Shown here one piece after another: positions 123-49,392 of a stretch of DNA of 64,000 nucleotides. This DNA is from a virus: IMG/VR virus record IMGVR_UViG_3300025132_000021, positions 32,001 to 96,000 of that record; one strand, 5' to 3'. The number at the start of each line of letters is the position of its first letter. The first letter of the stretch is position 1. Under the pieces are notes generated by a model that saw nothing but the letters and a program-made list of their open reading frames with translations, made no database searches and was not told the DNA's origin. Made by a program: the position numbers and the translations under genes.

Positions 123-2153
123 ATGACAAATACAAACACAGATACAAATAGATTTACACTTTCAGATAATTTCGTAACTAAATACAAGAGGAAAAAAGCA
201 CCTTTTGGATTCAACGGATTAGGAGAGTTAGTTTATCATAGAACCTATTCTCGTATGAAGCCAGATGGTAAAAACGAACAATGGTGGGAAACAGTTCAAC
301 GAGTTGTAGAAGGCACATTCAATATGCAAAAGCGACACATTGATGCACATGGTTTGGGTTGGAATGCTTGGAAAGCCCAACACTCGGCACAACAAATGTA
401 TGACCGTATCTTTAACATGAAGTTCCTTCCACCGGGTCGTGGACTATGGGCTATGGGAACACCAATCACTGAAGAAAAGAAACTTTTCGCAGCCCTGAAC
501 AACTGTGCTTTCGTATCTACTGAAAACTTCAAAGGTGAGTTCTCCTCGCCTTTTTGTTTCTTGATGGATGCTTCTATGCTGGGTGTTGGAGTAGGTTTTG
601 ATACCAAAGGTGCTGGCACTTTAATTCTCAAAGGTCCAAACGAACAACGCCGTAGTGAACTATATGAAATCCCTGACACTCGTGAAGGCTGGGTAGAGTC
701 CCTCCGACTATTGTTAGATTCCTATGCTCAAGGCACAGGAGAAATTGAGTTTGACTATTCAGCAATCCGTCCAATGGGAGTTCCTATTCGTGGATTCGGT
801 GGTGAATCATCAGGACCAGAACCCTTGATTGAACTGCACCAAACAGTTCGTTCTATTCTTCTTCACGAAATTGGCAAACCAATTTCACTCACTGCTATTG
901 TAGACATTATGAATCTAATTGGCAAGTGCGTAGTTGCTGGAAATGTGCGACGCACAGCAGAAATTGTCTTTGGAGAGCCAGATTCAGAAGAATACCTTGA
1001 CCTTAAGAATTATGAGGTCAATCCCCACCGAGCCGAATATGGTTGGACTTCTAACAACTCTATTTTCGCAGAGGTTGGAATGAATTATGAACCTGCTGCC
1101 GAGCGTGTTCGCTACAATGGTGAACCCGGTTTTGCATGGCTTCACAATATGAAAGCCTATGGCCGAATGGCAGATGCCCCAAATTGGAAAGACCGCCGAG
1201 CCACAGGTGGTAATCCTTGTTTGGAACAAACTTTAGAATCCTATGAACTTTGTTGTTTGGTAGAAACTTTCCCTAACAACCACGATTCAGTAGAAGATTA
1301 TTTGGAAACTTTGAAATATGCTTATCTTTATGCTAAGACCGTAACTTTGGGGCAAACCCATTGGCCTGAAACCAACCGAGTTATGCTTAGAAATCGTAGA
1401 ATTGGTTGTTCCATGTCAGGTATTGCCCAATTTGTTGCTAACAAAGGATTAGGAGAACTACAAGCATGGATGGATAAAGGCTATGCCCACATTCAAAAAC
1501 TTGATGAAAACTATTCTGATTGGATGGCTATTCCTCGTTCTATCAAAACTACTTCTATCAAACCATCAGGAACAGTTTCTCTTTTGGCAGGTGCTACACC
1601 GGGTATTCACTTCCCCGAATCCAGATACTACATTCGTCGTATGAGATTGGGCGTAGGTTCAAATCTCGTTCCAGCCCTTGAGAAAGCAGGATACAAACTT
1701 GAACCTGCTTTTGGTTCAGAAGAAACTACTTTGGTAGTTGAAATCCCTGTTGATGTAGGAGAAGGTGTTAAAACTCTTGATAATGTTTCTATGTGGGAAC
1801 AACTTGGTATGGCATCTTTGGCACAACGCTATTGGGCAGATAATCAAGTATCTTGCACCGTAACTTTTGACCCAGAATCAGAAGGCTCTCAAATTGCGGC
1901 GGCTCTTGACCAATTCCAATATCAACTCAAAGGTATTTCTTTCTTGCCCCGATTAGACTTGGGTGCATATCCACAAATGCCTTATGAATCTATTGATGAA
2001 TCTACTTACCATGAAATGAAAGCACAACTTGGAAAACTTTCTTTTGGTCGTATCAAGGGTGAAGAAATCGTCGTAGAGCGTTTCTGCGATAATGATGTTT
2101 GCGAAATTGATTTTAACCCCGTAGATAATGAAGAAGTTAATGCTCAACTATAA
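123..2153 (+). CDS. nrdJ: Class II (adenosylcobalamin-dependent) ribonucleotide reductase, monomeric RTPR-like
   Basis: YHRTYSR, PPGRGLW, ALNNC, GNVRRTAE, catalytic NPCLEQ, TSIKPSGTVS, C-terminal redox pair CDNDVC. Confidence 0.95.
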   Translation: MTNTNTDTNRFTLSDNFVTKYKRKKAPFGFNGLGELVYHRTYSRMKPDGKNEQWWETVQRVVEGTFNMQKRHIDAHGLGWNAWKAQHSAQQMYDRIFNMKFLPPGRGLWAMGTPITEEKKLFAALNNCAFVSTENFKGEFSSPFCFLMDASMLGVGVGFDTKGAGTLILKGPNEQRRSELYEIPDTREGWVESLRLLLDSYAQGTGEIEFDYSAIRPMGVPIRGFGGESSGPEPLIELHQTVRSILLHEIGKPISLTAIVDIMNLIGKCVVAGNVRRTAEIVFGEPDSEEYLDLKNYEVNPHRAEYGWTSNNSIFAEVGMNYEPAAERVRYNGEPGFAWLHNMKAYGRMADAPNWKDRRATGGNPCLEQTLESYELCCLVETFPNNHDSVEDYLETLKYAYLYAKTVTLGQTHWPETNRVMLRNRRIGCSMSGIAQFVANKGLGELQAWMDKGYAHIQKLDENYSDWMAIPRSIKTTSIKPSGTVSLLAGATPGIHFPESRYYIRRMRLGVGSNLVPALEKAGYKLEPAFGSEETTLVVEIPVDVGEGVKTLDNVSMWEQLGMASLAQRYWADNQVSCTVTFDPESEGSQIAAALDQFQYQLKGISFLPRLDLGAYPQMPYESIDESTYHEMKAQLGKLSFGRIKGEEIVVERFCDNDVCEIDFNPVDNEEVNAQL

Positions 2154-2159
2154 GTAGTT
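2149..2159 (+). promoter_or_regulatory. TATA-type promoter overlapping the RNR stop codon, driving the downstream small RNA
   Basis: TATAAGTAGTT; 31 nt downstream is the first G of the 2180-2261 stem-loop and no ORF starts there. Confidence 0.7.
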
Positions 2160-2179
2160 GAAGCATACTAATACTAATT

Positions 2180-2261
2180 GGAGCCAACATCAAACACTAA
2201 CCGTTCTCGCCTTCCTCACCAACGGTTCTTCCCTCACCTCTCTTGGTGTCTGGCTCCACCA
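2180..2261 (+). ncRNA. Putative 82-nt small RNA with tRNA-like acceptor stem, A-CCA 3' end and pyrimidine-rich loops
   Basis: Helices GGAGCCA/TGGCTCC, ACATCAA/TTGGTGT and AACCGTT/AACGGTT; ends in ACCA; own promoter; loops contain CCTCACC twice. Confidence 0.7.
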
Positions 2262-2322
2262 TCTATTCCAATAAGCCTAAGCCTTGCCAATCTTTAAGTA
2301 TCAGTTCTGCATTAGACTATTT

Positions 2323-3000
2323 ATGGTGCTTGAGTTTTATCCCATAGAGTTTGATGATGACTCGGTAGGATTCGTAGCAGTAGAGTCAGAGTTTGAACCT
2401 TGGTTAATTGCAGCCGTAGGTGTTGGTTTTGAAGATATGAGTTATTCTGTTCTTGAAGAAGACGATGATGGCTTAGTAGAATTGATTATTGACGGGGACG
2501 ATTTTGACAACCTTCAAGATTTGTATGCAGAATATCAAACCTATGGTTGGGCAGTTATTGATGACGATGATTATGCAGAATGGGCTGAAGCCTTTTCAGC
2601 CGAACAAATGAGTGATGAAGATTATCTCTTAATGATTATAGAGTTTGATGAGAAAAATCCACAACCTGCGAAACCTTATCATATAAAGTCAAGTCTTTAC
2701 GAAGATGGCACAGTCCCTTCAATGGCATTCTTTTTGGGTGGGAAAACGGTCAATCCAAAAGTAATGCTCAAAGCAATTAGAGAAGGCAGAGTTGCTCGCC
2801 TCAATCGTAATGCCGACACCAAAGGCTACTATCGTGGAATCAATCTTGACCGCTTTTCTGGTAATAAATCTAACCGCCGAAACTTTTCACAAACTCGTCG
2901 TAATCTTAAGAAAGATATGTTCGGTTCAGTATCCCTCGGCAGCATCCTCACAGGTGTTGCAGCCCTCGGAACAATTTTGTATCTGGTTAATAGGAAGTGA
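2323..3000 (+). CDS. Tail-anchored hypothetical protein (acidic N-half, basic C-half); start revised to ATG 2323
   Basis: TTTAAGTA at 2293 is 30 nt upstream; C-terminal LGSILTGVAALGTILYLVNRK. Confidence 0.8.
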   Translation: MVLEFYPIEFDDDSVGFVAVESEFEPWLIAAVGVGFEDMSYSVLEEDDDGLVELIIDGDDFDNLQDLYAEYQTYGWAVIDDDDYAEWAEAFSAEQMSDEDYLLMIIEFDEKNPQPAKPYHIKSSLYEDGTVPSMAFFLGGKTVNPKVMLKAIREGRVARLNRNADTKGYYRGINLDRFSGNKSNRRNFSQTRRNLKKDMFGSVSLGSILTGVAALGTILYLVNRK

Positions 3001-3142: not shown

Positions 3143-3174
3143 GTTTTAAGTATCAATAGTGTTTATGTTATTAC

Positions 3175-3486
3175 ATGGACAAAGATTTAGAATCCTTTAC
3201 TAAGGATTTGATGTTGTTAATCAACGCTTTCATTACCGATACAGGAGAGATGAAAGAAGTCTTAGCCAGACTCACAGAACAAATGGATACTTTAGAAAAA
3301 GATGTTGGCTACATGAACAAAGTGGTTCGTGATGGCAACGGTCGTCCACCACTAATGACTCGGTTAGAAGTTTTAGAAGAAAAGATTAACACCCTCAAAG
3401 AAACCACTAATCGTTGGTGGCAAGTTTGGGTAGCCGCAGTTCCCGGTTTGTTAGCCTTGCTTACAACTGGTGCAGTGGTGATGTGA
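3175..3486 (+). CDS. Coiled-coil protein with C-terminal membrane anchor
   Basis: Heptad-like helix then WWQVWVAAVPGLLALLTTGAVVM; promoter at 3145. Confidence 0.8.
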   Translation: MDKDLESFTKDLMLLINAFITDTGEMKEVLARLTEQMDTLEKDVGYMNKVVRDGNGRPPLMTRLEVLEEKINTLKETTNRWWQVWVAAVPGLLALLTTGAVVM

Positions 3487-3682: not shown

Positions 3683-3720
3683 AGACAAGTTTTAAGTATC
3701 AGAACAGTCAAGGATAGTAT

Positions 3721-4170
3721 ATGCCTTATTCCGACCCTGCTAAGAAAAAAGCCTATCAAGATGCTTACAATAAAAGATATTATGAAACTTACAAAGATGC
3801 GAAGAATCTGGTTGGCAAAGCCACTGATTCTAAATCACAACTACGCCAAAAGAAAAAACTTTGGTTAATTCATAAGTTAGGAAACAAATGTGAACTTTGT
3901 GGCATTCAAGAGCCAGAAGTATTACAAGTTAAAACCACCAATAAAACACCTGTGCAAAAGTGGAATAATAACTATTACAAATCTATTTATGATTATTCTT
4001 GGGACAATTTGGAAACTTTACATCATTCTCTTAAGATTACTTGTGATGTTTGCTTACAAAAGAACCTCAAATCTACTAAGAAAACTTTGCAGACATTGTT
4101 TGAAGAAACAGAAGACCTTCCCAGAGGTTATTCCCTTGATGAAGATTTAGAACCAGAGACTAATCTTTAA
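3721..4170 (+). CDS. Zinc-binding protein with degenerate HNH-like architecture
   Basis: Basic N-terminal helix, LGNKCELCG...ITCDVC; catalytic His not evident; promoter at 3691. Confidence 0.6.
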   Translation: MPYSDPAKKKAYQDAYNKRYYETYKDAKNLVGKATDSKSQLRQKKKLWLIHKLGNKCELCGIQEPEVLQVKTTNKTPVQKWNNNYYKSIYDYSWDNLETLHHSLKITCDVCLQKNLKSTKKTLQTLFEETEDLPRGYSLDEDLEPETNL

Positions 4171-48311: not shown

Positions 48312-48385
48312 GGGGTCGTAGTTTAATTTGGAAGAACAACTCGTTTGCGACGAGTAGGCTGGGAGTTCAAATCTCCCCGACTCCA
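48312..48385 (+). tRNA. tRNA-Ala(UGC), CCA not encoded
   Basis: Acceptor GGGGTCG/CGACTCC with G3:U70; anticodon arm ACTCG-TTTGCGA-CGAGT; T arm GGGAG-TTCAAAT-CTCCC. Confidence 0.95.
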
Positions 48386-48505: not shown

Positions 48506-49392
48506 AATCAATTAGTTTGCATTGTTTTTTGGGTGAAAAACTCTACAAAGCAGAGGAAAAAGGCAACTTTGGTGATGAGATTTCCCCTATTATTGTGCAA
48601 AATCTTATAGGTTCTGACTATGATTTGAGATATAATGATGACAATTGTGATGAAAGATTGCTGGCAATAGGGTCATTATTGCATGATGCCCAACCAAATG
48701 ATTACATCTTTGGCACAGGTTTCGGTCTTGAAGATAACGATAAACTTTCAGAACTAAATGTTTGCGCTGTCCGAGGACCATTGTCTCGTGAAAAGTTATT
48801 AGAAATCGGTGTGGATTGTCCAGAAGTTTATGGAGATGCGGCTTTACTTTTACCTGATTATTATGAACCTAACTATCTTCCAAACTTAGAGGGAAAAATT
48901 GGTGTTGTCCCACATTGGACGACCTACCCACATTATGAGAAACTTTTAGCCAACTCTAAACAATTCTATTTTATCAACCCAACTAATTCATGGCAACAAG
49001 TTATTGATGAAATCTATTCTTGCGATAAAATCGTATCTCAAGCATTACATGGTTTGATTTGTGCTGACGCTTACCAAACTCCTAATGTTTGGTTAGAGGA
49101 AAATATCTGGGCTTGTGTTTGTGGCAAACTTAGTGTAGATTCAGTCCTTAATCCTATTGAACCTCAACCACCTTGCTCATGCGGGTGGAACTACCATTCC
49201 ATAGGTAAAAATCTACCATTCCATAATGGAAACTTTAAGTTTTTAGATTACTTAGCCAGTCAAAACCGAGAAGTATCTCCTATTTCCCACCTACGGGAAG
49301 CCATCGGTGCAGATTACTATGAAGATGGAAACCAAATAGACTTAGAATTATTAAGAAACTCCTTTCCATTTGGTCAAAATACAAACCTTTAA
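48502..49392 (+). CDS. Polysaccharide pyruvyltransferase family protein
   Basis: GNFGD, AIGSLL, AVRGPLSR, YGDAALL, VVPH, SQALHGLICADAY. Confidence 0.88.
   Translation: MKSISLHCFLGEKLYKAEEKGNFGDEISPIIVQNLIGSDYDLRYNDDNCDERLLAIGSLLHDAQPNDYIFGTGFGLEDNDKLSELNVCAVRGPLSREKLLEIGVDCPEVYGDAALLLPDYYEPNYLPNLEGKIGVVPHWTTYPHYEKLLANSKQFYFINPTNSWQQVIDEIYSCDKIVSQALHGLICADAYQTPNVWLEENIWACVCGKLSVDSVLNPIEPQPPCSCGWNYHSIGKNLPFHNGNFKFLDYLASQNREVSPISHLREAIGADYYEDGNQIDLELLRNSFPFGQNTNL

What the first reader, a model, noticed from the sequence alone, without database searches (positions are those of the whole stretch)
2149..2261. Stand-alone small RNA with tRNA-like acceptor stem, CCA end and anti-Shine-Dalgarno-like loops
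Seen: a consensus promoter places the start exactly on G2180. The RNA folds as GGAGCCA/UGGCUCC + A + CCA, a bulged C, ACAUCAA/UUGGUGU, an internal loop CUUCCCUCACCUCUC, AACCGUU/AACGGUU and an apical loop CUCGCCUUCCUCACC. It has no D, T or anticodon arm, so it is not a tRNA. Both loops display CCUCACC, resembling the 16S anti-SD (UCACCUCC). Inference: it could mask GAGGUGA/GGUGA ribosome-binding sites (favouring the leaderless viral mRNAs, or tuning SD-led genes), or act as a tRNA or Y-RNA-like decoy.
Basis: partly seen in the sequence, partly recalled or inferred. Interest (0 to 1): 0.85.

Follow-up and report, generated by a model that had tools for sequence, protein, structure and literature searches.

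The report
Conserved small RNA of marine archaeal viruses
This stretch is a real, previously undescribed small structured RNA gene, shared by a widespread group of large marine archaeal viruses, that has a tRNA-like closing stem and displays pyrimidine-rich loops resembling the ribosome's mRNA-docking sequence; its function has not been tested.

Summary
Window 2180-2261 (+) folds as described (-23 kcal/mol, z -4.9). It starts 23 nt after TATAAGTA (2149-2156), a one-mismatch copy of the virus's own promoter box. That box, TTTAAGTA, puts the ATG of leaderless genes 22-23 nt downstream in 48 of 64 exact copies.

The virus encodes archaeal PolD, so it is an archaeal virus.

The RNA is a family. 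Thirty-five of 80 marine metagenome loci with 82-99% identical NrdJ carry it at the same place, in about 9 lineages. A covariance model built from lineage A alone recovered most of the others at my exact coordinates; the second model recovered all of them. On 20 distinct sequences, 97% of cells pair and 15 of 21 pairs show compensatory changes (0/500 shuffles).

- The 3' tail is conserved as N-CC, not CCA.
- The RNA is not always stand-alone: a tRNA-Pro follows in 16 of the 35 loci, and a smaller analogue precedes tRNA-Ala in a third virus.
- Only the 3' internal loop keeps the anti-SD-like motif across lineages.

There is no Rfam match, no paper found, and no hit in 151 Poseidoniia genomes. 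Function is inferred only. A trans-acting RNA that pairs with purine-rich, SD-like sequences is my leading guess. No transcript data could be obtained.

The parts
123..2153 (+). Upstream gene: class II (B12-dependent) ribonucleotide reductase NrdJ. Its TAA stop (2151-2153) lies inside the RNA's TATA box.
   Evidence: Pfam RNR_Alpha 1.1e-43 and RNR-II insertion domain 1.8e-15. The same overlap of stop codon and TATA box is seen in relative G001.
2149..2156 (+). TATA-type promoter box TATAAGTA, one mismatch to the viral consensus TTTAAGTA. It is followed by GTTGAA, as in a subclass of the viral promoters.
   Evidence: Genome-wide motif and spacing statistics. A TATA box lies 22-23 nt before the first G of the hairpin in all 19 distinct metagenome homologues.
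2180..2261 (+). The small RNA, 82 nt, from the inferred start G2180 to the end of the ACCA tail. The true 3' end is unknown.
   Evidence: Fold z -4.9. CM matches cover exactly these coordinates. Covariation.
2180..2193 (+). P1, 5' strand: GGAGCCA plus ACAUCAA. The first six positions (GGAGYC) are nearly invariant across lineages.
   Evidence: Alignment A7. Of the 14 P1 pairs, 9 show changes on both sides and 99% of cells are paired.
2194..2198 (+). Short 5' side of the asymmetric internal loop (ACACU).
2199..2227 (+). P2 hairpin: 7-bp stem (2199-2205 with 2221-2227) and a 15-nt pyrimidine-rich apical loop (2206-2220).
   Evidence: 6 of 7 P2 pairs show compensatory changes. The apical loop is 77-100% pyrimidine and mostly predicted unpaired across lineages.
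2228..2242 (+). 3' internal loop CUUCCCUCACCUCUC. This is the conserved pyrimidine motif (consensus about YUYCCYYC-N-CYUCY) and contains UCACCUCU, a 7-of-8 match to the anti-SD UCACCUCC.
   Evidence: Aligned in all lineages. 78-93% pyrimidine, unpaired probability 0.71-0.94. Duplex with GGAGGUGAU is -7 to -15 kcal/mol and beats 90% of shuffles in 7 of 11 lineages.
2243..2257 (+). P1, 3' strand: UUGGUGU, bulged C2250, UGGCUCC.
2258..2261 (+). Single-stranded tail ACCA. Across lineages it reads N-CC-(A/C).
2293..2325 (+). Next promoter (TTTAAGTA 2293-2300) and, 22 nt later, the leaderless ATG at 2323 of a 225-aa ORF. No oligo-T terminator lies between the RNA and this promoter.

Best explanation
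Window 2149-2261 is the gene of a virus-specific small structured RNA belonging to a family of large marine archaeal viruses.

Shown:
- The fold.
- Its conservation with many compensatory base changes on the + strand.
- A viral TATA box at a fixed 22-23 nt before the first base of the closing helix.
- Two pyrimidine-rich, predicted-unpaired segments.
- A conserved N-CC tail.
- Frequent fusion to a downstream tRNA gene in a single transcription unit.

Inferred:
1. Host RNA polymerase starts at G2180.
2. The closing helix plus ACC(A) is handled like a tRNA acceptor end. RNase P cuts at the following tRNA where one is present. Otherwise the 3' end is made by trimming or RNase Z, possibly followed by CCA repair. 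Either route gives a stable 64-89 nt RNA.
3. The RNA acts in trans through its exposed pyrimidine tracts. The conserved 3' internal loop imitates the 3' end of 16S rRNA (UCACCUCC). My leading mechanism is therefore pairing with purine-rich, Shine-Dalgarno-type sequences (GGAGG/GGUGA). This would lower initiation on SD-led messages relative to the virus's many leaderless messages.
For: Existence and strand:
- Fold z -4.9 on + versus -2.6 on -.
- 43 of 362 pair cells are G-U wobbles, which would be mismatches on the other strand or in DNA.
- There is no ATG between 2180 and 2322, and indels among homologues are not in threes.

Promoter:
- 48 of 64 exact TTTAAGTA boxes have an ATG at 22-23 nt in this genome, and 53 of 73 in relative G001.
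- All homologues keep the box at 22-23 nt.

Family:
- The gene is syntenic (after nrdJ) in G001 although it cannot be found by BLAST.
- It is present in 35 of 80 metagenome loci.
- Model R1, built from lineage A only, found lineages B, C, D, F, G, H and I full-length at my coordinates.
- Model R2 found all 29 copies among the 93 sources searched (904 kb, both strands), with nothing else at E<=5.
- Covariation score is 0.504 against 0.152 in shuffles, 0/500; slid controls give 31-47% paired against 97%.

Selection: within lineage A the RNA is 98-99% identical, while the end of nrdJ is 88-97% and the next gene 81-91%. The four variable sites are all unpaired.

Loops: pyrimidine content and accessibility; SD complementarity beyond composition.

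Context: the virus has two translation classes, about 57 leaderless ORFs and 70 ORFs with GGAGG/GGTGA upstream.

tRNA linkage.
Against: - Both ends are therefore inferred.
- There is no terminator, and the next TATA box follows within 5-35 nt. The 3' end needs an unproven processing step, or the hairpin may simply be a 5' leader.
- The anti-SD resemblance is strong in only about two thirds of lineages. It is partly a consequence of C/U richness (shuffle p 0.002-0.44), and the lineages are not independent.
- The virus's own internal cistrons use SD sites, so a general SD mask would hit them too.
- An RNA competing with ribosomes would need very high abundance.
- No extended complementary target exists in the viral genomes, and the host is unknown.
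Confidence: 0.35

Rival explanations
1. Protein sponge or scaffold that works like a Y RNA. The rigid closing helix and the two pyrimidine tracts bind a host or viral RNA-binding protein. Candidates are a tandem KH-domain protein that normally holds the CCUCC end of 16S rRNA (a Dim2/Pno1-type factor) or another pyrimidine-tract binder. The RNA would titrate or redirect that protein during infection.
For: - The architecture matches: a long terminal stem (with a bulged base in some lineages), and a large pyrimidine-rich internal loop on the 3' side.
- The loop motif is conserved as a pattern (UYCCYYC ... CYUC) rather than as one exact sequence, which suits protein recognition of short C/U words.
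- The first six base pairs of P1 are sequence-invariant, which suggests a protein-recognised helix end.
- No nucleic-acid target was found in the viral genomes.
Against: - No Rfam Y_RNA/YrlA match.
- No TROVE/Ro gene in the virus.
- The bulge is absent in lineages B, C, D, G, H and I.
- No candidate partner protein has been identified.
Confidence: 0.25
2. A cis-acting tRNA-like processing or leader module rather than a trans-acting RNA. The helix plus N-CC would be a minimal substrate for tRNA-maturation enzymes. It would punctuate transcripts by defining the 3' end of read-through nrdJ mRNA, serve as the promoter-proximal leader of the viral tRNA-Pro or tRNA-Ala, or insulate the next leaderless promoter. 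This is comparable to mascRNA at MALAT1 or to mitochondrial tRNA punctuation.
For: - It always sits at a gene boundary, with its TATA box overlapping the nrdJ stop codon.
- It is fused to a promoter-less tRNA-Pro in 16 of 35 loci and in G001, and an analogue precedes tRNA-Ala in G002.
- There is no terminator of its own.
- The acceptor-like stem in lineages B and D (GGAGUCG/CGACUCC-A) differs from the viral tRNA-Ala acceptor stem (GGGGUCG/CGACUCC-A) only at position 3.
Against: - A pure processing signal would not need 98-99% conservation of two 15-nt loops or pyrimidine tracts in every lineage.
- It has its own promoter starting exactly at the helix, so no 5' cleavage is needed.
- It persists, highly conserved, in six lineages that have no tRNA.
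Confidence: 0.2
3. A functional acceptor-stem mimic. After 3' maturation to CCA, the minihelix would engage the tRNA machinery (an aminoacyl-tRNA synthetase such as AlaRS, EF1A, the CCA-adding enzyme, or ribosomal tRNA sites) as a decoy or an alternative substrate.
For: - A 7-bp G1-C72/G2-C71 stem, a purine discriminator and CC are conserved in all lineages.
- The stem is close to the viral tRNA-Ala acceptor stem, and lineage I even carries G3-U70.
Against: - 19 of 20 distinct sequences have A3-U70. By established knowledge of AlaRS identity, this abolishes alanine charging.
- The terminal A is not encoded in 5 of 9 lineages.
- This reading gives no role to the conserved pyrimidine loops.
Confidence: 0.07
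4. Not an RNA gene: a DNA-level element (protein-binding repeats, cruciform), an nrdJ terminator hairpin, or chance.
For: - The locus has an inverted repeat plus two direct CCTCACC copies and lies right after a gene.
- A loose descriptor gives about one chance hit per 450 kb.
Against: - G-U wobbles (43 cells) and compensatory changes fit RNA on the + strand only.
- No T-run follows.
- The promoter box is conserved at fixed spacing.
- CM E-values reach 1e-14 to 1e-4, with no false hits at E<=5 in 904 kb.
Confidence: 0.03

Closest known systems
tRNA and tRNA minihelix (acceptor stem plus T arm)
   Same: A 7-bp terminal helix starts G-C, G-C, followed by a single purine discriminator and CC(A). 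The RNA is often co-transcribed with a genuine tRNA. P1 is 12-16 bp, about the length of the coaxial acceptor/T-arm stack.
   Different: It has no D, anticodon or T arm and no T-loop motif, and it is not detected by ARAGORN or Rfam. The terminal A is not conserved. The interior is a hairpin flanked by pyrimidine tracts.
Y RNAs / bacterial YrlA (Ro60/Rsr-bound RNAs)
   Same: It is a small RNA whose 5' and 3' ends form a long stem (bulged in some lineages), with a large pyrimidine-rich internal loop. YrlA also combines this with a tRNA-like part, and some phages encode such RNAs (from my own knowledge).
   Different: There is no match to the Rfam models, no conserved Ro-binding helix sequence, no Ro/TROVE gene in the virus and no 3' oligo-U tail.
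Bacteriophage T4 stable RNAs species 1 and 2 (rnaC, rnaD) in the tRNA gene cluster
   Same: Both are virus-encoded small stable RNAs that are not tRNAs, are transcribed and processed together with viral tRNAs, and have a paired 5'/3' terminal stem. Their function is still unknown (from my own knowledge, not checked here).
   Different: The T4 RNAs come from a bacterial virus, are longer (about 120-140 nt), share no sequence similarity and are not known to carry pyrimidine-rich anti-SD-like loops.
3' end of 16S rRNA (helix 45 plus the anti-Shine-Dalgarno tail GAUCACCUCCU)
   Same: A hairpin is followed by a single-stranded UCACCUCY-type tract. In this genome the P2 stem even reads AACCG/CGGUU, followed 6 nt later by UCACCUCU. 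The viral SD sites (GGAGG, GGTGA, AGGTG) are complementary to the tract.
   Different: The tract is an internal loop, not a free 3' end. Identity to the anti-SD is 4-7 of 8 depending on lineage. There is no evidence that it meets mRNAs or ribosomal factors.
tRNA-like processing modules (mascRNA at MALAT1, MHV68 tRNA-miRNA units)
   Same: A tRNA-like element is placed at a transcript boundary, and tRNA-maturation enzymes would release a small RNA.
   Different: Those elements fold into cloverleaf-like tRNA mimics and belong to eukaryotic Pol II/III systems. Here only the acceptor end is mimicked, and the unit has its own promoter starting at the helix.

Membership tests
tRNA (Rfam RF00005 / ARAGORN) | Cloverleaf with D, anticodon and T arms and conserved T-loop/D-loop nucleotides | tested here: not met
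   ARAGORN finds only tRNA-Ala at 48312-48385 in the window. Rfam at E<=10 gives no tRNA hit on 1900-2600. The fold is one long interrupted hairpin.
tRNA (Rfam RF00005 / ARAGORN) | 7-bp acceptor stem, discriminator, 3' CCA | tested here: inconclusive
   The stem and discriminator are present in all 20 distinct sequences, and CC is always present. The terminal A is encoded in only 4 of 9 lineages; elsewhere the tail is ACCC or AACC.
Y RNA / YrlA | Match to the family covariance models; conserved Ro-binding bulged helix | tested here: not met
   No Rfam hit at E<=10 here or at gathering score in 8 homologous loci. The bulge is absent in 6 of 9 lineages.
Y RNA / YrlA | Co-occurrence with a Ro60/Rsr (TROVE) protein | tested here: not met
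   PF05731 has no match at E<=1 in the 160-kb virus record, which is about 65% complete. The host is unknown, so a host Ro cannot be excluded.
Archaeal H/ACA guide sRNA | Hairpin with a two-sided pseudouridylation pocket, a K-turn or K-loop (tandem G-A pairs) in the upper stem, and an ACA box right after the lower stem | tested here: not met
   By inspection, the 5' side of the internal loop is only 1-5 nt. The loops contain almost no purines, so no G-A K-turn is possible. The tail is ACC, not ACA/ANA. No Rfam hit.
Archaeal C/D box sRNA | C (RUGAUGA) and D (CUGA) boxes near the ends | tested here: not met
   There are no such boxes on the + strand. The only Rfam line is a chance snoZ278 hit on the - strand: 14.7 bits against a gathering score of 36, E 5.1.
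BHB-flanked circular RNA precursors (EndA substrates) | Bulge-helix-bulge motif: two 3-nt bulges separated by 4 bp, in the closing helix | tested here: not met
   P1 is continuous or has a single 1-nt bulge. The transcript starts at the first base of the helix, so no 5' flank is available.
Intrinsic or oligo-U transcription terminator of nrdJ | Hairpin or signal followed by a run of T | tested here: not met
   No T-run lies within 60 nt after the helix. The terminator scan found none at this site.
Anti-SD mimic (a working analogy, not a curated family) | Accessible tract complementary to the SD consensus used by the system | tested here: inconclusive
   The viral SD words are GGAGG, GGTGA and AGGTG. 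The 3' internal loop is unpaired (probability 0.71-0.94). It pairs with GGAGGUGAU at -7 to -15 kcal/mol, beating 90% of its own shuffles in 7 of 11 lineage representatives. Binding was not tested.

The most novel reading that the evidence does not exclude
A virus-encoded decoy of the ribosome's anti-Shine-Dalgarno end. An abundant, tRNA-processed small RNA would soak up SD sequences, or a factor that binds the 16S 3' end. That would shift the infected archaeal cell from SD-dependent to leaderless initiation, which is the mode used by the virus's promoter-proximal genes. It would be the first known RNA-based takeover of translation-initiation mode, and the first functional small RNA family described for archaeal viruses.
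Probability: 0.2. Interest if true: 0.9.

Novelty: new variant of a known kind. Interest (0 to 1): 0.7.

Why it matters
Almost nothing is known about non-coding RNAs of archaeal viruses. Here is a family with textbook-quality covariation, its own strong promoter and a global marine distribution (TARA and many JGI ocean metagenomes). It sits in large PolD-encoding viruses whose hosts are probably uncultivated Thermoplasmatota.

The design joins a tRNA-like end to exposed pyrimidine tracts that resemble the 16S anti-SD sequence. The virus itself splits its genes into leaderless and SD-led classes. Together these make a concrete hypothesis testable: that a virus controls which class of mRNA the host ribosome initiates on.

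Even if that hypothesis is wrong, the RNA is a new structured family for Rfam. It is also a marker for this virus group, and an example of a viral tRNA transcribed behind a conserved structured leader.

Tried and rejected
- Sigma-70 promoter scan: none at the site. The promoter is archaeal TATA-type.
- BLAST of the window against INPHARED phages: no match.
- Exact 18-mer of the RNA in IMG/VR: three hits, all chance matches inside an unrelated coding sequence.
- The protein downstream of the RNA (2323-2997): no Pfam family and no relatives in IMG/VR.
- NrdJ relatives in IMG/VR: the four closest (L006-L009) lack the RNA after nrdJ. The roughly 70%-identity group are unrelated contigs.
- BLAST of the RNA against related virus genomes found nothing. 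The homologue in G001 was found only by listing promoters that have no ATG after them.
- MAFFT/RNAalifold on unaligned homologues recovered only 6 pairs. CM-guided alignment was needed.
TROVE/Ro: none.
- Search for a cellular counterpart: not found with R2 in three Thermoplasmatota genomes or in 151 genomes of the class of a Poseidoniia MAG.
- R2 also misses the small G002 analogue and finds nothing in the distant relative on G006. Absence calls are therefore weak.
- 16S rRNA of candidate hosts: not present in the five MAGs tried. The host anti-SD is therefore taken from general knowledge and from the viral SD words.
- Target search of both loops against the viral genomes: only the trivial antisense self-match beats shuffled loops.
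- Literature searches found no description of this RNA, its promoter motif or this virus group. The magrovirus paper (PMC5434244) describes different viruses.
Full report
**What is there**

Window 2149-2261 lies between the stop codon of a class II ribonucleotide reductase gene (nrdJ, 123-2153; Pfam RNR_Alpha 1.1e-43) and the promoter of the next gene.
- P1: GGAGCCA-ACAUCAA (2180-2193) pairs with UUGGUGU-[C2250]-UGGCUCC (2243-2257).
- 5' internal loop: ACACU.
- P2: AACCGUU pairs with AACGGUU (2199-2205 with 2221-2227).
- Apical loop (15 nt): CUCGCCUUCCUCACC.
- 3' internal loop (15 nt): CUUCCCUCACCUCUC.
- Tail: ACCA (2258-2261).

ViennaRNA returns this very structure at -23 kcal/mol. The z-score is -4.9 and no shuffle of 200 folds as well. 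The complementary strand is much weaker, at z -2.6. ARAGORN and Rfam see nothing here.

**The genome and its promoters**

The window is part of a 160-kb IMG/VR virus record with inverted terminal repeats. It encodes the large subunit of archaeal DNA polymerase D (PF03833, 2.7e-69). The nearest cellular DP2 sequences (36-41% identity) are from Thermoplasmata, including marine group II/III MAGs. It is therefore an archaeal virus, probably of marine Thermoplasmatota.

A bacterial promoter scan finds nothing at the site, but the virus has its own sharply defined promoter:
- The octamer TTTAAGTA occurs 64 times. An ATG that opens an ORF follows after exactly 22 nt in 39 cases and after 23 nt in 9.
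- In the related virus G001 the figures are 42 and 11 of 73.
- This is the geometry of an archaeal TATA box with leaderless mRNAs.

At our locus TATAAGTA (2149-2156, overlapping the nrdJ stop) is followed by 23 nt, then T(-1)/G2180(+1). ORFs without such a box mostly carry GGAGG, GGTGA or AGGTG upstream. The virus therefore uses both leaderless and SD-led initiation.

**Finding relatives**

Sequence searches failed. Listing promoters that are not followed by an ATG turned up one case in G001, a 166-kb relative with 68% DP2 identity. There, right after its nrdJ, lies TTTAAGTA, then 23 nt, then a 69-nt hairpin. It has the same plan:
- a 7-bp GGACUCC/GGGGUCC end;
- one bulged base;
- a second helix;
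- a small upper hairpin with a UCUUUCUUC loop;
- a 15-nt 3' internal loop UCCUCUCGCCUCCAA;
- the tail ACCA.

One base later a tRNA-Pro(GGG) gene begins. The region is syntenic with ours: NrdJ is 83% identical and the neighbours are shared.

A third virus, G002 (53% DP2 identity), has a smaller hairpin with a CCCCUCAACCUCG tract and an ACCA tail. It lies 22 nt after a TTTAA box and 11 nt before tRNA-Ala. I regard it as a probable analogue only; the covariance model does not detect it.

**The family**

I scanned metagenome contigs with an alignment of viral NrdJ sequences. This returned 80 loci at 82-99% identity from TARA, JGI and other ocean assemblies. Thirty-five of them carry the hairpin directly after nrdJ. 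There are 19 distinct sequences in about nine lineages, which I label A to I. All share the following:
- a TATA box 22-23 nt before the first G;
- a 12-16 bp closing helix whose first six pairs are nearly invariant (GGAGYC/GRCUCC);
- an upper hairpin with a U/C-rich loop;
- a strongly asymmetric internal loop whose 3' strand is a pyrimidine tract containing CCUC;
- a single-stranded tail.

Homology test:
- A covariance model built from lineage A alone recovered lineages B, C, D, F, G, H and I as full-length matches at precisely the coordinates I had set by eye (E 3e-7 to 0.14).
- The second-round model recovered the sequences left out of training (G001, L162, L172, L178; E<=5e-4).
- That model gave no other hit at E<=5 in 904 kb on both strands.
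- It finds a single copy in the whole genome.

On the 20 distinct sequences:
- 97.2% of pair cells are standard pairs.
- 15 of 21 pairs show changes on both sides.
- The covariation score is 0.504 against 0.152 for shuffles (0/500).
- Sliding the 3' partners by 1-3 columns drops pairing to 31-47%.

The alignment was fitted to the structure, so these numbers lean towards it. The independent single-sequence folds agree, however. Forty-three cells are G-U wobbles, which only make sense for RNA of the + strand. Within lineage A the RNA is 98-99% identical, while the end of nrdJ is 88-97% and the next gene 81-91%. The four variable sites are all unpaired. I consider the existence of a selected, structured RNA gene established short of transcript data (about 0.9).

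1. The CCA end is not conserved. Tails are ACCA (lineages A, E, F), ACCC or ACCCC (B, C, D, H, I), AACC (G), and once GCCA. Only N-CC is constant.
2. The RNA is stand-alone in this genome only. In 16 of 35 loci and in G001 a nearly invariant tRNA-Pro(GGG), with encoded CCA and no promoter of its own, follows after 1-26 nt. Hairpin and tRNA therefore form one transcription unit.
3. Across lineages only the 3' internal loop keeps an anti-SD-like word. Examples are UCACCUCU, UCACUUCC, UCGCCUCC and CCUCCUCC; the consensus is roughly YUYCCYYC-N-CYUCY. The apical loop is conserved mainly as a U/C tract.
4. There is no terminator. The next TATA box follows within 5-35 nt, so the 3' end must come from processing, or the transcript runs on.

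**What the loops could do**

Both tracts are 77-100% pyrimidine, and the 3' internal loop is predicted unpaired (0.71-0.94). That loop pairs with the SD consensus GGAGGUGAU at -7 to -15 kcal/mol. This is better than 90% of its own shuffles in 7 of 11 lineage representatives, so order and not just composition contributes. The lineages are related, however, and the effect is modest.

No extended complementary site exists in the viral genomes beyond what shuffled loops give. This argues for a short generic target (SD-like), a host target or a protein.

In this genome the resemblance to the 16S 3' end goes further. P2 reads AACCG...CGGUU, like helix 45, and UCACCUCU follows 6 nt later. This is not conserved in other lineages, and I treat it as coincidence.

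**The tRNA-like end**

The closing stem of lineages B and D (GGAGUCG/CGACUCC, discriminator A) equals the acceptor stem of the virus's own tRNA-Ala (GGGGUCG/CGACUCC-A) except for A3-U70 in place of G3-U70. Lineage I has G3-U70.

By established knowledge of alanine identity, A3-U70 minihelices are not charged, so a chargeable mimic is unlikely. The likeness does suggest a descent from, or handling like, a tRNA acceptor end. The conserved N-CC is what RNase P, the CCA-adding enzyme and the ribosomal tRNA sites read on a tRNA. I could not test any of this.

**Comparison with known kinds**

- It is not a tRNA, Y RNA/YrlA, H/ACA or C/D sRNA, BHB substrate or terminator. Details are in the membership table.
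- It works most like two known kinds. One is the small stable RNAs that some viruses transcribe and process together with their tRNAs (T4 species 1 and 2, from my own knowledge). The other is Y RNAs, which have a terminal stem and a pyrimidine-rich loop.
- No counterpart was found in 151 Poseidoniia-class genomes or three other Thermoplasmatota MAGs, which is weak negative evidence.
- Literature searches returned nothing on this RNA, the promoter motif or the virus group.
Our RNA has no BHB motif.

**Verdict**

This is a real and new RNA family, with the anatomy shown and the function inferred. My rough odds for what it does:
- Trans-acting through the pyrimidine tracts by pairing with SD-like purine runs: about 0.35 as stated (about 0.2 for the full decoy scenario).
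- Protein sponge or scaffold: 0.25.
- Mainly a cis processing or leader module: 0.2.
- Acceptor-end decoy: 0.07.
- Not an RNA gene: 0.03.

The decisive missing evidence is transcript ends from marine metatranscriptomes and a translation assay comparing SD-led and leaderless messages.

Noticed in passing
Whole genome G000; e.g. window 2293-2325, 3145-3177, 3691-3723: The virus-wide promoter TTTAAGTA (usually preceded by aaYc) puts the ATG of leaderless genes exactly 22 nt (39 of 64) or 23 nt (9 of 64) downstream. The bases after the box fall into subclasses (TCAG..., GTCGT..., GTTGAA...), which may mark temporal classes. The RNA's promoter belongs to the GTTGAA class.
   Followed up: partly
L002:1504-1600 (genome 155371-155470, outside the window): A second copy of the GTTGAA-class promoter is followed, again after 23 nt, by the same first nine bases as the RNA (GGAGCCAAC). 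The sequence then diverges and runs into several T-runs. It may be a second short transcript or a partial duplication. The covariance model does not match it.
   Followed up: partly
L098:6957-7034 (-) and L150, L162, L165, L172, L176, L178: The viral tRNA-Pro(GGG) that follows the hairpin is almost invariant across lineages whose hairpins differ greatly. It encodes CCA and has an odd D arm. ARAGORN calls it, but Rfam found nothing at gathering score in the six of the eight loci searched that contain it.
   Followed up: partly
window 48312-48385: The viral tRNA-Ala(UGC) starts directly after the stop codon of a micro-ORF, has no TATA box of its own and lacks an encoded CCA. Its orthologue in G002 (L101:13163-13239, -) encodes CCA and is preceded by the small hairpin analogue.
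   Followed up: partly
L277 (G006:C16 about 49229-49314, - strand): Contig PALK01000017.1 (136 kb), binned as a Rickettsiales MAG, carries a DP2 57% identical to the virus's, so it is probably a mis-binned relative. It does not use TTTAAGTA. It does have TATAAATA, then 22 nt, then an 86-nt two-hairpin structure (-40 kcal/mol) closed by a 7-bp stem and followed by ACCC. This may be a different RNA with the same kind of end.
   Followed up: no
L165:5148-5171 and the same place in L166, L174, L176, L181, L184: In lineage F the spacer between the hairpin's ACCA and tRNA-Pro holds an extra small stem-loop (CUGCGG UUCAUU CCGUAG).
   Followed up: no
L010-L085: The viral NrdJ is about 70% identical to NrdJ on many IMG/VR contigs whose downstream genes have SD sites and signal-peptide-like starts, so they look bacterial. 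The viral gene may have been acquired from, or shared with, bacteria.
   Followed up: no
Pfam MCM (PF00493) gave no match in the 160-kb record.
   Followed up: partly
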